Sequence record: NC_024125.2
Source of the DNA: Escherichia phage vB_EcoM_112
DNA length: 64,000 nt
Direction: 5' to 3' (one strand)
In this document: piece by piece, positions 24,333-55,506 of the stretch
Layout of the letters: each line of letters opens with the position of its first letter
Position numbering within the stretch: position 1 is the first letter of the stretch
The notes under the pieces: generated by a model
Seen by the model: only the letters and a program-made list of their open reading frames with translations
Database searches by the model: none
What the model was told of the DNA's origin: nothing
Made by a program: the position numbers and the translations under genes

Positions 24333-24581
24333 TTACTTCAGTGTTACCACAAAGTGACGAACTGCTTTTCGTGCAGCAGAAGCCAAAGGCTTAGCATACT
24401 TAAGTTCATCTTTTTCCTGGAGCTCAGCAGCTAATGCAGTTTGAGCAGGATTTAGATGTTTGAAATAACGCAGGATTTCAAGAGCTTCGGCTTCAACATC
24501 AATAGATGCGCCATAGTTTTCGTGACCATTATTCCATGCGTTTCGTTGCAGTTCAAGAGCGTGTTGTAATTGTTTAATCAT
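24333..24581 (-). CDS. rIII: rIII lysis inhibition accessory protein
   Basis: 82 aa (T4 rIII length); position between 30.x cluster and gene 31. Confidence 0.82.
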   Translation of the reverse strand: MIKQLQHALELQRNAWNNGHENYGASIDVEAEALEILRYFKHLNPAQTALAAELQEKDELKYAKPLASAARKAVRHFVVTLK

Positions 24582-26879: not shown

Positions 26880-27185
26880 TTAAATTGCTTTGAATTCTGC
26901 TGTCTGCGATTCAAAACGAATATCGCCTTGGATAACTAGCTCAGCATCAAGACCGAATACAACAATGATATGTGCAGAACCTGGATACAGCGTAATTGCA
27001 ATAGAATCCACCTGGTCTGGAAGCAAAGTGTTCAATACATGAGTCACTTGAGCATGGATTCGAAGTTCGGCTGCGTTATCAAGCTTTTCAAACATATTAT
27101 TAGCGATAATTTGACTAAACACTACTTCTACGATTTTAGAATAAGTCGGAAACATATTTACCTCACATAATTTTCTTCGAGCCAA
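26880..27185 (-). CDS. Hypothetical protein (cd.3 position)
   Basis: 101-aa ORF. Confidence 0.55.
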   Translation of the reverse strand: MARRKLCEVNMFPTYSKIVEVVFSQIIANNMFEKLDNAAELRIHAQVTHVLNTLLPDQVDSIAITLYPGSAHIIVVFGLDAELVIQGDIRFESQTAEFKAI

Positions 27186-27350
27186 TCAATAACATCCAAC
27201 GCATTATCAAAAGTTGAACCATCTACTTTGTCTTCTGTTTCATAATCAAGAACATCTAAACCTACTCTTCCATCAACAATAGGCCATAAACAAAACAGGT
27301 ATTTCTTTTCTTTTTCAATTTTATCGCAAAGACGATAAATCTTTTCTATG

Positions 27351-27358
<8 letters not shown>
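27158..27358 (-). CDS. Hypothetical protein (cd.4 position)
   Basis: 66-aa ORF. Confidence 0.5.
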
Positions 27359-28764
<1,406 letters not shown>

Positions 28765-28992
28765 TTATTTTTTCTCAACCAGTGATTGAATATAATCATG
28801 CAGGTCTTTAGATGCTTTGCCCCACTTATTTTGATATTCATTTTTGAGATTAGCACGTGATTGAGCTAATAAAACATCATTAGTTGGAGGTAAAGATTCT
28901 AACCGCTGAATTTGGCGTCCATAAATCATTGCTGCCATCTCGGATTCATAAATCAATCCTTTGAGATGTTCAAATTGATGCCATGAAATCAT
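28765..28992 (-). CDS. Hypothetical protein (pseT.2 position)
   Basis: 75-aa ORF. Confidence 0.5.
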   Translation of the reverse strand: MISWHQFEHLKGLIYESEMAAMIYGRQIQRLESLPPTNDVLLAQSRANLKNEYQNKWGKASKDLHDYIQSLVEKK

Positions 28993-29288
28993 TTACATTT
29001 ATCCTCTTTTAACTCTTGACGATAATAACATATCATAGTTTTCTGGTCATGTACATATCGTTTTACATCATTAAGCCAAATACGGAATTCCTGAGAATCT
29101 TCAAATGGCATACCGACCCAAGCTTTACCATCGATAACTTTAACTTGCCAAGATAGTTTAGCTTCGTCATATGACTTTATTTGTACAGGCCAATTAGGAT
29201 GAACTGTTTCTTTCTTTACTTCTAGAGGCTTTGTCGAACAACCAACTAGAAGACCAATAGATAATATTACTGCTGATAGTTTAATCAT
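28989..29288 (-). CDS. Predicted lipoprotein
   Basis: N-terminus MIKLSAVILSIGLLVGCS = signal peptide with lipobox L-V-G-C. Confidence 0.6.
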   Translation of the reverse strand: MIKLSAVILSIGLLVGCSTKPLEVKKETVHPNWPVQIKSYDEAKLSWQVKVIDGKAWVGMPFEDSQEFRIWLNDVKRYVHDQKTMICYYRQELKEDKCK

Positions 29289-29638
29289 TTAGAAAGGTCC
29301 TGGATGTCTTCTGCGAACTTGTTGAAGGAGTTGTTGATTTGTTTTTCAACCAATCCTGGCTTATGAGCCACCACATCCGCCTTCTTTGCGGCTTTGCGCA
29401 GTGTTTCATTTTCACGCTCAATAGCAGCAATTGCCTCACGATTTTTATTATTCATCGCATCAATATAATTATACTGAATTCGCAAATTATTTAATGCTAA
29501 AGCGTTTTCATTGGCTGTTTTTGTAATTTCAGTAACTGATGTTTCTAATCTTTCTACCTTATTTTTTAAAATAATAGATGTTCCGCCAAATGCTATTACA
29601 AGTAATAGCAATCCAGCTGTAAAATTACTTACATGCAT
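29285..29638 (-). CDS. Predicted membrane-anchored coiled-coil protein
   Basis: N-terminal hydrophobic helix LLLLVIAFGGTSIIL followed by heptad-rich sequence. Confidence 0.55.
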   Translation of the reverse strand: MHVSNFTAGLLLLVIAFGGTSIILKNKVERLETSVTEITKTANENALALNNLRIQYNYIDAMNNKNREAIAAIERENETLRKAAKKADVVAHKPGLVEKQINNSFNKFAEDIQDLSK

Positions 29639-30135
29639 AAAGTTTTAATAACCTCTATAATATCGTCTTGAGAAAGACCGTTAATTAAAATATGATGTTC
29701 AGCTGGAGATTTAGAAATTTTAAAGCATGCCTCAACATCTTCTGCCATATCCGATGCACTACGATTTGGATTACTAATCCCAAGGCGGTGTTTTCCCGTC
29801 AAAGGATTAACAATAATGTAGCATTTACAACTATTGATATGAACATTAGGCTGAGTCTGATTAATGAACACTTCACAATCATACTTAGCGAGTTGATTTT
29901 CTAAAAAGACTTTCATCTCTTCAACCGCATCAGGAAGCATATCACGGGCTTGCTCAAGACGACGATTTCGATATTCTTTAATGGTCGTTTTCCGCTTGAC
30001 TTGCTTAGCTAAATCTTTCTTAAGATCAGTGATATATCCAACTCGACGATTTCCTTTGAATACCGAAATCCCATCTGTAGTATCACCGTATGCTTCAACG
30101 ACCATTTCAGTAGTAATAAGCTGCAAATCCATCAT
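29629..30135 (-). CDS. alc: Alc, host transcription (unmodified-cytosine DNA) inhibitor
   Basis: 168-codon ORF (T4 Alc ~167 aa); early promoter cassette and SD GAGGA upstream. Confidence 0.78.
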   Translation of the reverse strand: MMDLQLITTEMVVEAYGDTTDGISVFKGNRRVGYITDLKKDLAKQVKRKTTIKEYRNRRLEQARDMLPDAVEEMKVFLENQLAKYDCEVFINQTQPNVHINSCKCYIIVNPLTGKHRLGISNPNRSASDMAEDVEACFKISKSPAEHHILINGLSQDDIIEVIKTLCM

Positions 30136-30139
30136 AAAG

Positions 30140-30193
30140 TCCTCATGTTATGTCAGTAAGACTACTATAACACAACACGAGGGACTTGTAAAC
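30140..30193. repeat. 54-bp perfect direct repeat, copy B
   Basis: Identical to 16547-16600. Confidence 0.9.
30164..30193 (-). promoter_or_regulatory. Early promoter upstream of alc, copy 2 of 54-bp repeat
   Basis: Identical to 16547-16600 over 54 bp. Confidence 0.6.
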
Positions 30194-30196
30194 AGC

Positions 30197-31784
<1,588 letters not shown>

Positions 31785-31811
31785 AATAAAATGGGCCTTA
31801 CGGCCCACTCC

Positions 31812-32314
31812 TTAAAAATATTTTTTAAAACTCATCATAACTTTATCATCAACATCATTATCAATCTGTGCAACAAGGTAAGATGACAGTTCTACTTCTT
31901 GTGGCGCGGATTGAACATTATCAGAATTAAGATATTCACGAATCCAAGGATACGGATGTTTAACCGGAGCATCGGTAATTGGGCATGGAAGACCACACTG
32001 TTTCATACGAGATACAGTTAAGTAATCAATAAAGCTCCACATGCTATTTGTATTTAATCCAGGAACATCGCCATCTTTAAATAAATGAACTGCCCAATCT
32101 TTTTCTTGGCGGTTAACTTCCATGAAAATATCAACTGCTTCTTGTTCACACTCTTGAGCAATTTTAACCCATTCATCGCCATCAGTGCCAAGTTGAAGTT
32201 GACGAATAATATATTGAGTGCCTTTAAGGTGAAGCTGCTCATCACGTGCAATGAACTTCATAATCTTGGCATTACCTTCCATGATTTCCATGTTCTTATG
32301 GAAGTTGAAAGTAC
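31812..32314 (-). CDS. nrdB: Ribonucleotide reductase beta subunit, exon 2
   Basis: MEIMEGNAKIMKFIARDEQLHLKGTQY aligns to E. coli NrdB [20 protein letters not shown]; exon start inferred at 32314 so that junction reads YVSFA-C-TFNF. Confidence 0.85.
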
Positions 32315-33405
32315 CGTTATGTTCGATTGAGCTCGCTAATTCTCAACCCGTTCTCTTATGAACTGCTACATATTACTATGCAGACCAGACTATATCACAA
32401 TCCCAGAGGGATTCTCCCCATTTCGAGTCGCTTGACCCTACGTCCGAAGACTAGTCGTTGAACCTTGCTTTGCAATTGTCGCCGTGCCATCGTTTATATG
32501 TTGATGGTGATAAATCTTTCTTATCACAATATGGACAATTCAATTGAATTCTATTTGGATTTAATTTACATCTGTCATTATGTTTTAGATAAAATCCAGG
32601 ACCTTTACCAATGTGACCGCAGAAATCACATGTGATTTCTTTTTGTGCAGGATGGGTCCCGTTCTTAACCATTTCTAATGTTTTTGCTGATGTTCTTTTC
32701 TTATGGTCTTCTGACAAGAAATGATGTGAACCGTCATTTACCCGTTTTGATTGAGTTTCTGACTGCATTTTACCACCGCAAAATACATGAGTACCTTCTT
32801 TTATAGCTGCAATATTGCGTTCTTTAACTTTTGCAATATGCTCAGCTTGTTGAAAATTATGTATACCTAATGCAACTCTATTTAAATTAGATTTACGCTG
32901 TATTTCACCATCTAAAAGATGAAATGTACCATTTTCTATCTTAGATTTAATAGAGGCAATATTTTTAGCTCGTACTTCAGGGATATTAAAAATCTGGATT
33001 TCTCTAGATTTTGCGGCTTTAGAAGCTAATTCAGAAATTTCTTCAGGAGAATATTTCATTCTAAGCTTTATAGCATGACAAGCCTGGTAATCTTTTTGAG
33101 CTAAATGTATATCATAATGTTCCTGTATAGAAAGGCACATCAAATTATCTAAATCATTATTTTCACGGTTACCGTCTTTATGATGGATTTCGTATGTTCT
33201 TCCATCAGAATCTTTAGGTATAGGTCCGTTAGCATCTATCCAAATTTTTCTATAGTTCAATTGTGCATCCTCTTAAAAGTATAATCATATTTATATTATA
33301 CTAATTAAAGGTGCAAGCAAAACCTTGGCTGCTAGTTTTCCTATAAAGGACTTTCCAGCAATTAAAGGAGTTTTCGATAAACGTTACCGTTTAAAGGCGC
33401 ATTTT
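32315..33405 (-). ncRNA. Group I self-splicing intron in nrdB (1091 nt) carrying I-TevIII ORF
   Basis: Interrupts conserved NrdB sequence; exon 1 ends in U, intron ends in G; joining restores conserved FYVSFAC; internal HNH ORF. Confidence 0.8.
32451..33260 (-). CDS. I-TevIII: HNH homing endonuclease, full length (I-TevIII-like)
   Basis: 269 aa; HNH motif EIHHKDGNRENNDLDNLMCLSIQEH; C-terminal Cys-rich zinc-finger-like region (CDFCGH...CPYCDKK). Confidence 0.82.
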   Translation of the reverse strand: MNYRKIWIDANGPIPKDSDGRTYEIHHKDGNRENNDLDNLMCLSIQEHYDIHLAQKDYQACHAIKLRMKYSPEEISELASKAAKSREIQIFNIPEVRAKNIASIKSKIENGTFHLLDGEIQRKSNLNRVALGIHNFQQAEHIAKVKERNIAAIKEGTHVFCGGKMQSETQSKRVNDGSHHFLSEDHKKRTSAKTLEMVKNGTHPAQKEITCDFCGHIGKGPGFYLKHNDRCKLNPNRIQLNCPYCDKKDLSPSTYKRWHGDNCKARFND

Positions 33406-54849: not shown

Positions 54850-55506
54850 ATGTCAGCACCTAGAATATCATTTTCGCCCTCTGATATTCTATTTGGTGTT
54901 CTAGATCGCTTGTTCAAAGATAACGCTACCGGGAAAGTTCTTGCTTCCCGGGTAGCTGTCGTAATTCTTTTGTTTATGATGGCGATTGTTTGGTATAGGG
55001 GAGATAGTTTCTTTGAGTACTATAAGCAATCAAAGTATGAAACATACAGTGAAATTATTGAAAAGGAAAGAACTGCACGCTTTGAATCTGTCGCCCTGGA
55101 ACAACTCCAGATAGTTCATATATCATCTGAGGCAGACTTTAGTGCGGTGTATTCTTTCCGCCCTAAAAACTTAAACTATTTTGTTGATATTATAGCATAT
55201 GAAGGAAAATTACCTTCAACAATAAGCGAAAAATCACTTGGAGGATATCCTGTTGATAAAACTATGGATGAATATACAGTTCATTTAAATGGACGTCATT
55301 ATTATTCCAACTCAAAATTTGCTTTTTTACCAACTAAAAAGCCTACTCCCGAAATAAACTACATGTACAGTTGTCCATATTTTAATTTGGATAATATCTA
55401 TGCTGGAACGATAACCATGTACTGGTATAGAAATGATCATATAAGTAATGACCGCCTTGAATCAATATGTGCTCAGGCGGCCAGAATATTAGGAAGGGCT
55501 AAATAA
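54850..55506 (+). CDS. t: Holin T
   Basis: 218 aa (T4 T length); N-terminal TM segment VAVVILLFMMAIVWY; position after gene 38. Confidence 0.88.
   Translation: MSAPRISFSPSDILFGVLDRLFKDNATGKVLASRVAVVILLFMMAIVWYRGDSFFEYYKQSKYETYSEIIEKERTARFESVALEQLQIVHISSEADFSAVYSFRPKNLNYFVDIIAYEGKLPSTISEKSLGGYPVDKTMDEYTVHLNGRHYYSNSKFAFLPTKKPTPEINYMYSCPYFNLDNIYAGTITMYWYRNDHISNDRLESICAQAARILGRAK

What the first reader, a model, noticed from the sequence alone, without database searches (positions are those of the whole stretch)
28989..29638. Lipoprotein and membrane-anchored coiled-coil protein pair between pseT and alc
ORF 28989-29288 has a classical lipoprotein signal with lipobox (MIKLSAVILSIGLLVGC|S). The adjacent ORF 29285-29638 has one N-terminal TM helix followed by coiled-coil-like sequence. 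There are four small ORFs between pseT and alc, where I recall three in T4, so one may be an extra accessory gene. Phage envelope proteins of this kind often act in superinfection exclusion or receptor masking, which would pair with the OMP-targeting gp38 adhesin, or in spanin-like lysis functions.
Basis: inference. Interest (0 to 1): 0.45.

Follow-up and report, generated by a model that had tools for sequence, protein, structure and literature searches.

The report
Known T4 spanin lysis gene pair
The flagged lipoprotein and membrane-anchored coiled-coil protein are this phage's copies of T4 PseT.2 and PseT.3, the already characterised two-part "spanin" that breaks the host outer membrane in the last step of lysis, so the finding is real but ordinary.

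Summary
Both ORFs exist exactly at the stated coordinates, on the minus strand. ORF 28989-29288 (99 aa) has a lipoprotein signal: lipobox LVGC, Cys17, Ser at +2. ORF 29285-29638 (117 aa) has one N-terminal transmembrane helix followed by a heptad-patterned helical domain.

They are not novel. They are 98/99 and 114/117 residues identical to T4 PseT.2 (o-spanin) and PseT.3 (i-spanin), and they hit the PHROG "Rz-like spanin" families at E 3.5e-43 and 1.2e-36. They lie in the T4 gene order pseT / pseT.1 / pseT.2 / pseT.3 / alc / rnlA.

For the T4 proteins, Kongari et al. 2018 (PMC6139136) showed complementation of the lambda Rz-am/Rz1-am lysis defect. They also showed that PseT.2 C87 and C98 are essential. 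Both cysteines are present here and are invariant in eight homologues aligned.

Superinfection exclusion or receptor masking has no support.

The extra gene is a different ORF, 28450-28764 (104 aa, helical, function unknown). It is absent from T4 but found in 698 phage records.

Novelty: already known. Interest: low.

The parts
29285..29638 (-). pseT.3 orthologue: i-spanin (117 aa). It is a type II inner-membrane protein with a transmembrane domain at about residues 6-24, a periplasmic coiled-coil helix at about 28-87, a conserved C-terminal segment VVAHKPGLVEKQINNSF, and no cysteine.
   Evidence: ORF. 114/117 identical to T4 PseT.3. PHROG 739 'Rz-like spanin' E 1.2e-36 and PHROG 214 E 1.2e-05. 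Hydropathy and Cys count. Heptad pattern. C-terminal conservation across five other genera. Annotated i-spanin / Rz-like spanin in T4 and relatives.
28989..29288 (-). pseT.2 orthologue: o-spanin (99-aa precursor, 83-aa mature outer-membrane lipoprotein). Lipobox LVGC with Cys17 and Ser at +2. Periplasmic cysteines C87 and C98.
   Evidence: ORF. 98/99 identical to T4 PseT.2; the only difference falls at T4's ambiguous residue X86. PHROG 812 'Rz-like spanin' E 3.5e-43. Lipobox and Cys positions. C17, C87 and C98 invariant in 8 homologues. C87 and C98 shown essential in T4 (PMC6139136).
30164..30192 (-). Best-scoring sigma-70-like promoter site (TTTACA, 17-nt spacer, TG, TATAGT). It lies in the rnlA-alc gap, the only intergenic gap upstream of the tightly packed alc / pseT.3 / pseT.2 / pseT.1 / ORF104 / pseT run. 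It is an inferred candidate early promoter for the spanin genes.
   Evidence: Consensus scan, 10 of 12 matches with an extended -10 TG. The total number of promoter-like sites in the region is not above chance, so this is an inference from position only. The nearest late-promoter TATAAATA on the minus strand upstream of the pair is at 33288-33295, about 3.6 kb away.
54850..55503 (+). Holin gene t. It acts before the spanin in the lysis pathway and is not part of the pair. It lies about 25 kb away, so the spanin genes are not in a lysis cassette, as in T4.
   Evidence: tblastn with T4 holin T: 99.1% identity over 218/218 aa. The T4 arrangement is described in the Fig. 8 legend of PMC6139136.

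Best explanation
[quoted passage not shown] They form a two-component spanin with the 'separated' gene architecture.

Mechanism, taken from the T4 and lambda work rather than shown here:
1. PseT.3 inserts in the inner membrane by its N-terminal transmembrane helix, with its helical coiled-coil domain in the periplasm.
2. PseT.2 is exported, lipid-modified on Cys17, cleaved by signal peptidase II, and sorted by Lol to the inner leaflet of the outer membrane (Ser at +2).
3. The C-terminal parts of the two proteins bind each other, giving a complex that spans the periplasm through the peptidoglycan meshwork.
4. PseT.2 C87 and C98 go from an intramolecular disulfide to two intermolecular disulfides in a PseT.2 homodimer. 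This step is needed for function.
5. When the holin T and the endolysin E destroy the peptidoglycan, the complexes are freed to change conformation and bring the inner and outer membranes together. Probably by fusing them, they remove the outer membrane as the last barrier to phage release.

Shown here: the anatomy, the near-identity to the tested T4 proteins, the synteny, and conservation of the critical residues.
Inferred here: the function of this phage's own alleles, and early transcription from the promoter-like site upstream of alc.
For: - 98/99 and 114/117 residue identity to T4 PseT.2 and PseT.3.
- Same gene order as T4, pseT / pseT.1 / pseT.2 / pseT.3 / alc / rnlA, at 97-98% nucleotide identity for the pseT.1-to-rnlA genes.
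- PHROG 812 and 739 'Rz-like spanin', E 3.5e-43 and 1.2e-36.
- Annotated i-spanin/o-spanin or Rz/Rz1 in many related records.
- Lipobox LVGC with Cys17 and Ser at +2; single transmembrane domain at 6-24; C87 and C98 present; no Cys in the i-spanin.
- Heptad pattern.
- C17, C87 and C98 invariant in 8 homologues: six Straboviridae genera (including Tequatrovirus itself) plus one Demerecviridae phage.
- alc / i-spanin / o-spanin order kept in four of the five other Straboviridae genera fetched, and the i-spanin / o-spanin pair in all five. The i-spanin C-terminus VVAxKPGLVEKQINxSF is conserved.
- Experimental basis for the orthologues: T4 pseT.3 plus pseT.2 complement lambda Rz-am/Rz1-am; the C87S and C98S mutants are lysis-defective; the disulfide-linked PseT.2 dimer forms only when PseT.3 is present (PMC6139136, read).
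- Holin t and rIII are present in the window.
Against: Nothing found here contradicts it.

Caveats:
- No experiment has been done on this phage's own alleles. PseT.3 differs from T4 at three positions: H26N, K79T, D83A.
- No dedicated signal-peptide or transmembrane predictor was available.
- Pfam and NCBIfam have no model that captures these proteins. There were only sub-threshold hits, for example TIGR03495 LysB at E 0.09.
- No solved structure exists for either protein.
- The membrane-fusion step is a model derived mainly from lambda Rz/Rz1.
Confidence: 0.96

Rival explanations
1. The pair, or the lipoprotein alone, is a superinfection-exclusion or receptor-masking envelope protein. On this reading it blocks adsorption or DNA entry of related phages, in the manner of T5 Llp or Cor-type lipoproteins, and is functionally coupled to the gp38 adhesin.
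For: Only the generic anatomy: a small phage-encoded outer-membrane lipoprotein and a small membrane protein. There is also probable early rather than late transcription: no late promoter lies within about 3.6 kb upstream, and a sigma-70-like site lies upstream of alc.
Against: - The orthologues at 97-99% identity have a demonstrated spanin function.
- PHROG hits at E <= 0.001 are spanin families only, plus one weak family of unknown function.
- No hit in PADLOC, Pfam or NCBIfam suggests exclusion.
- The pair is conserved in T4 itself, whose gp38 is a fibre-assembly chaperone and not an adhesin (annotation note). It is therefore not linked to the adhesin type.
- From general knowledge, T4-type exclusion is assigned to imm and sp.
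Confidence: 0.02
2. One of the two flagged ORFs is an accessory gene that is extra relative to T4.
For: The window does have four small ORFs between pseT and alc, against three in T4.
Against: Both flagged ORFs have full-length T4 counterparts, pseT.2 and pseT.3. The insertion relative to T4 maps to 28451-28757, which is the 104-aa ORF next to pseT and lies outside the flagged coordinates.
Confidence: 0.01
3. The ORFs are chance open frames in AT-rich DNA and the lipobox is coincidental.
For: None. Short AT-rich ORFs are common: many spurious antisense ORFs appear.
Against: Protein-level conservation extends to 33-55% identity in other genera, with the lipobox Cys and both C-terminal cysteines invariant. 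The T4 proteins have been detected by western blot.
Confidence: 0.005

Closest known systems
Phage T4 PseT.3 / PseT.2 two-component spanin (separated architecture; Summer et al. 2007 from own knowledge; Kongari et al. 2018, PMC6139136)
   Same: - Lengths are identical (117 and 99 aa), with 97% and 99% residue identity.
- The gene order and the 4-nt ATGA overlap are the same.
- The lipobox, the transmembrane domain, C87 and C98, and the absence of Cys in the i-spanin all match.
- The position between alc and pseT.1, far from holin t, is the same.
   Different: - PseT.3 has three substitutions: H26N, K79T, D83A.
- PseT.2 residue 86 is Ile where the T4 reference is ambiguous (X).
- A 104-aa ORF that T4 lacks sits two genes downstream, between pseT.1 and pseT.
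Phage lambda Rz / Rz1 spanin
   Same: It has the same two-component logic: a type II inner-membrane protein with a periplasmic coiled coil, plus a small outer-membrane lipoprotein. The function is interchangeable, since the T4 pair complements lambda Rz-am/Rz1-am.
   Different: - No sequence similarity was detected in any search run here.
- In lambda, Rz1 is embedded within Rz, whereas here the genes are separated.
- Lambda Rz1 is short, proline-rich and unstructured, whereas PseT.2 is 83 aa mature with a predicted beta-alpha-beta domain.
- In lambda both subunits carry cysteines, whereas here only the o-spanin does, and both of its cysteines are essential.
Phage P2 LysB / LysC spanin (overlapped architecture)
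   Same: It is a two-component spanin. There is a weak sub-threshold hit of the i-spanin to TIGR03495 'Rz-like lysis system protein LysB' (E 0.09).
   Different: The hit is far below the curated cut-off (13 against 92.75 bits). The gene architecture is different.
T5 Llp / Cor-type receptor-masking lipoproteins
   Same: A small phage-encoded outer-membrane lipoprotein.
   Different: No similarity was found in the PHROG, Pfam or NCBIfam searches. Those proteins act alone, whereas this one is paired with an i-spanin and has a demonstrated lysis role in T4.

Membership tests
Two-component spanin, T4 PseT.3/PseT.2 family | The o-spanin has a signal peptidase II signal with a lipobox Cys, and a +2 residue compatible with outer-membrane sorting (not Asp). 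| tested here: met
   MIKLSAVILSIGLLVGC|ST: lipobox LVGC, Cys17, Ser at +2. The Cys is invariant in 8 homologues. Motif and hydropathy only; LipoP was not available.
Two-component spanin, T4 PseT.3/PseT.2 family | The i-spanin has a single N-terminal transmembrane domain (type II) followed by a periplasmic helical / coiled-coil domain. | tested here: met
   Hydrophobic segment at 6-24 with Kyte-Doolittle 19-residue mean 2.24. Heptad a/d pattern from about 28 to 87, with 14 of 500 shuffles as good. N-in/C-out topology itself was not tested.
Two-component spanin, T4 PseT.3/PseT.2 family | The i-spanin gene lies immediately upstream of the o-spanin gene on the same strand (separated architecture, overlap of 8 bp or less). 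| tested here: met
   29285-29638 and 28989-29288, both on the minus strand, with a 4-nt overlap. The separated criterion is described in PMC6139136.
Two-component spanin, T4 PseT.3/PseT.2 family | Sequence homology to the experimentally validated T4 proteins. | tested here: met
   98/99 and 114/117 identities. PHROG 812 and 739 at E 3.5e-43 and 1.2e-36.
Two-component spanin, T4 PseT.3/PseT.2 family | Periplasmic cysteines for homotypic disulfide linkage: PseT.2 C87 and C98, none in PseT.3. | tested here: met
   Cys at 17, 87 and 98 in the o-spanin and none in the i-spanin. C87 and C98 are invariant in the alignment. They are essential in T4.
Two-component spanin, T4 PseT.3/PseT.2 family | Required for outer-membrane disruption: complements lambda Rz-am/Rz1-am, and loss gives a Mg2+-stabilised lysis defect. 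| not testable with these tools
   Shown for the T4 orthologues only (PMC6139136). Not tested for this phage's alleles.
Two-component spanin, T4 PseT.3/PseT.2 family | Physical complex of i-spanin and o-spanin across the periplasm. | not testable with these tools
   Indirect evidence only. In T4 the PseT.2 disulfide dimer forms only when PseT.3 is present. The i-spanin C-terminus is strongly conserved.
Superinfection-exclusion / receptor-masking lipoproteins (Llp, Cor and similar) | Sequence membership in a family annotated as exclusion or receptor-blocking. | tested here: not met
   PHROG hits at E <= 0.001 are spanin families plus one weak unknown family. Nothing in PADLOC, Pfam or NCBIfam above cut-off.
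Superinfection-exclusion / receptor-masking lipoproteins (Llp, Cor and similar) | Expression reduces adsorption or plating of homologous phages. | not testable with these tools
   A wet-lab test is needed. No report of such a phenotype was found in the two literature searches.

The most novel reading that the evidence does not exclude
The T4-type spanin genes sit in a prereplicative gene block behind a sigma-70-like promoter, not in a late lysis cassette. They might therefore have a second role in the envelope before lysis, such as hindering superinfecting phages. Separately, the neighbouring 104-aa ORF that T4 lacks (28450-28764) might be a new accessory function tied to pseT or to the spanins. 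Neither reading is excluded by the data, and neither has any positive evidence.
Probability: 0.04. Interest if true: 0.5.

Novelty: already known. Interest (0 to 1): 0.05.

Why it matters
It matters little beyond correct annotation. The two genes should be labelled i-spanin (PseT.3) and o-spanin (PseT.2), not putative exclusion proteins. Many related GenBank records still call one or both "hypothetical protein", so the assignment is useful for curation.

The only open item nearby is the uncharacterised and unusually divergent 104-aa ORF between pseT and pseT.1. It is common in T-even-like phages but missing from T4, so T4 genetics has never examined it.

Tried and rejected
1. Pfam, NCBIfam and PADLOC scans of the pair gave only sub-threshold noise: Crescentin rod, DUF4446, Lpp signal region, LysB at E 0.09. 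Those libraries have no model for this spanin family; PHROG does.
2. A PDB sequence search found no solved relative for either spanin subunit.
4. I looked for a late promoter TATAAATA upstream of the pair. The nearest one on the minus strand upstream of the pair is at 33288-33295, about 3.6 kb away.
5. An Rfam scan of 27000-32000 found nothing. The terminator-like sites are on the plus strand and no more frequent than chance.
6. For the extra 104-aa ORF I tried Pfam (single sequences of the alignment), NCBIfam, PADLOC, PDB by sequence and by profile, an AlphaFold2 model (pLDDT 69, four helices), and Foldseek against PDB (no match with E < 1). All were uninformative. The label 'putative homing endonuclease' carried by some related records found no support.
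7. The presumed source record (phage vB_EcoM_112, guessed accession KJ668714) is not in the annotated phage collection.

Full report
**Observation**

The region 27548-31357 carries a run of tightly packed minus-strand genes. The two flagged ORFs are at exactly the stated coordinates, on the minus strand.

ORF 28989-29288 encodes 99 aa beginning MIKLSAVILSIGLLVGC|ST.
- A motif and hydropathy check finds a lipobox LVGC with the lipidated Cys at position 17.
- Ser is at +2, which is compatible with outer-membrane sorting.
- Two further cysteines lie at positions 87 and 98.

ORF 29285-29638 encodes 117 aa.
- It has one hydrophobic segment, FTAGLLLLVIAFGGTSIIL (residues 6-24), and no cysteine.
- A hydrophobic a/d heptad pattern can be followed from V28 to about A87. 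Only 14 of 500 composition-preserving shuffles reached the contrast of the best 28-residue window.

The two genes overlap by ATGA.

**What it is**

The surrounding genes are recognisable:
- polynucleotide kinase PseT at 27548-28453 (Pfam HAD_PNKP, E 1.5e-59);
- Alc at 29629-30135 (Pfam ALC, E 2.5e-92);
- RNA ligase 1 (rnlA) at 30197-31357 as the mechanical ORF.

The T4 reference record NC_000866 has the order pseT / pseT.1 / pseT.2 / pseT.3 / alc / rnlA, with pseT.2 and pseT.3 both annotated "Rz-like spanin".

The flagged lipoprotein is 98/99 identical to T4 PseT.2. The single difference falls on T4's ambiguous residue X86. The flagged membrane protein is 114/117 identical to T4 PseT.3, with substitutions H26N, K79T and D83A.

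PHROG places the two in family 812 (E 3.5e-43) and family 739 (E 1.2e-36), both "Rz-like spanin, lysis". Related phage records annotate the same genes as i-spanin/o-spanin or Rz/Rz1. tblastn finds the o-spanin in 1172 phage records and the i-spanin in 680.

**Experimental basis for the family**

Kongari et al. 2018 (PMC6139136, read) report the following for T4:
- Plasmid-borne pseT.3 plus pseT.2 complement the lysis defect of a lambda Rz-am/Rz1-am lysogen.
- PseT.3 has no periplasmic cysteine and forms no SDS-stable dimer.
- PseT.2 C87S, C98S and the double mutant are all lysis-defective.
- A disulfide-linked PseT.2 dimer appears only when PseT.3 is present.
- The genes are of the "separated" architecture and are not near holin t or endolysin e.

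All of these sequence features are present in the window's proteins.

I checked conservation directly. I aligned the window pair with T4 and with homologues from Dhakavirus, Gelderlandvirus, Winklervirus, Jiaodavirus and Krischvirus. For the o-spanin I also included a Demerecviridae phage.
- C17, C87 and C98 are invariant.
- The i-spanin C-terminal segment VVAxKPGLVEKQINxSF is the most conserved part, while the coiled-coil region varies.
- The order alc / i-spanin / o-spanin is kept in four of the five other Straboviridae genera; in the fifth, Krischvirus, the pair is kept but no alc is annotated upstream.

**How it most likely works**

Steps 1 to 5 below are established for T4 and lambda, not shown here. 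Step 6 is my inference.
1. PseT.3 anchors in the inner membrane with its helical domain in the periplasm.
2. PseT.2 is lipidated on Cys17, processed, and sorted to the outer membrane.
3. The two bind through their C-terminal parts, giving a complex that spans the periplasm and is threaded through the peptidoglycan.
4. The PseT.2 cysteines isomerise into two intermolecular disulfides in a homodimer.
5. After holin T and endolysin E remove the peptidoglycan, the complexes are free to collapse and fuse or disrupt the inner and outer membranes, which completes lysis.
6. The pair is probably co-transcribed with alc from an early promoter.

The basis for step 6 is as follows:
- The best sigma-70-like site in the region (TTTACA, 17-nt spacer, TG, TATAGT; 30192 to 30164, minus strand) lies in the only intergenic gap upstream.
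- The nearest late-promoter TATAAATA on the minus strand upstream of the pair is at 33288-33295, about 3.6 kb away.
- The overall number of promoter-like sites is not above chance, so this is a positional inference only.

Holin t is in the window at 54850-55503 (99% identical to T4) and rIII is at 24336-24581. As in T4, therefore, the spanin genes are unlinked to the rest of the lysis machinery.

Superinfection exclusion or receptor masking is not supported.
- No exclusion family was hit in PHROG, Pfam, NCBIfam or PADLOC.
- The pair is equally present in T4 itself. The T4 record notes that its gp38 is a fibre-assembly protein and not an adhesin, so there is no link to the adhesin type.

The remark that there are four small ORFs where T4 has three is correct, but the extra one is neither of the flagged genes. 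Alignment with T4 shows a clean insertion of about 308 nt at 28451-28757, exactly between the pseT start and the pseT.1 stop, where T4 has no intergenic base. It encodes a 104-aa protein (28450-28764).

**The extra ORF (side finding)**

- It is 100% identical to "hypothetical protein e112_233" of Escherichia phage vB_EcoM_112, which probably identifies the source of the window.
- It occurs in 698 phage records. T4 is therefore the exception, not this phage.
- It is the most divergent gene of the block: 86.5% nucleotide identity to phage AdolfPortmann, while all neighbours except pseT (91.4%) are at 96-99%. At protein level it is 99% identical only to Yersinia phage fPS-2, and then drops to 73%, 60% and 40%.
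- It belongs to PHROG 2364, function unknown.
- It has no significant Pfam, NCBIfam, PADLOC or PDB match.
- AlphaFold2 gives a moderate-confidence four-helix model (pLDDT 69.4), with no Foldseek PDB match at E < 1.
- Conserved features are C11, C19, LDxAGKAL, FISxN and the C-terminal LGIK.
- The label "putative homing endonuclease" in some records found no support.

**Verdict**

The feature is the well-known T4 spanin pair, so it is already known and of low interest. Confidence in the spanin assignment is about 0.96. The remaining uncertainty is only that this phage's own alleles have not been tested.

Noticed in passing
window 28450-28764 (-): A 104-aa ORF lies between pseT and pseT.1 and overlaps the pseT start by ATGA. 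T4 lacks it (a clean gap of about 308 nt), but 698 phage records have it. It is the most divergent gene of the block. It is predicted to be all-helical (four helices, pLDDT 69). PHROG 2364, function unknown, with no Pfam, NCBIfam, PADLOC or PDB match. Some records call it 'putative homing endonuclease', for which I found no support. It is 100% identical to e112_233 of Escherichia phage vB_EcoM_112, which probably identifies the source of the window.
   Followed up: yes
window 28765-28992 (-): The pseT.1 orthologue (75 aa) is 100% identical to T4 PseT.1 and overlaps the o-spanin stop by ATGA. Its function is unknown (PHROG 2347). It was not examined further. No pseT.1 CDS was annotated downstream of pseT.2 within the flank fetched for JS98 (L003).
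   Followed up: partly
window 28989-29638 compared with the phage collection: Conservation of the two spanin subunits is asymmetric. The o-spanin is at least 99% identical in 349 records, many of them 100%. No record has an i-spanin at least 99% identical; the best is 98.3%, and 66 records fall at 80-90%. Variation sits in the coiled-coil helix, while the C-terminal VVAxKPGLVEKQINxSF stays fixed.
   Followed up: partly
window 30197-31357 (-): The mechanical ORF for rnlA starts at a GTG and gives 386 aa. T4 rnlA is 374 aa (1125 nt). In the ORF translation the residues after the twelfth read MQELFNNL. The real start is therefore probably the ATG at 31321.
   Followed up: partly
L008:364-819 (Escherichia phage vB_EcoM_G2494, Krischvirus): The annotated o-spanin homologue is 151 aa, with an N-terminal extension of about 55 aa that contains a second hydrophobic stretch. 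An internal Met (MFKKAHKNFQTAIIHVFAVPIVFALSSC) would give a normal lipoprotein signal. The annotated start is probably too far upstream, or the arrangement differs in that genus.
   Followed up: no
window 54850-55503 (+) and 24336-24581 (-): Holin t (99% identical to T4) and the lysis-inhibition accessory gene rIII (100% identical) are both in the window. They lie about 25 kb and about 4.4 kb from the spanin pair.
   Followed up: partly
window 27548-28453 (-): pseT (polynucleotide kinase) is noticeably more divergent than the spanin, alc and rnlA genes next to it: 91-93% nucleotide identity to T4 and AdolfPortmann, against 96-99% for those neighbours. This suggests a mosaic boundary or faster evolution around pseT and the extra ORF.
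   Followed up: no
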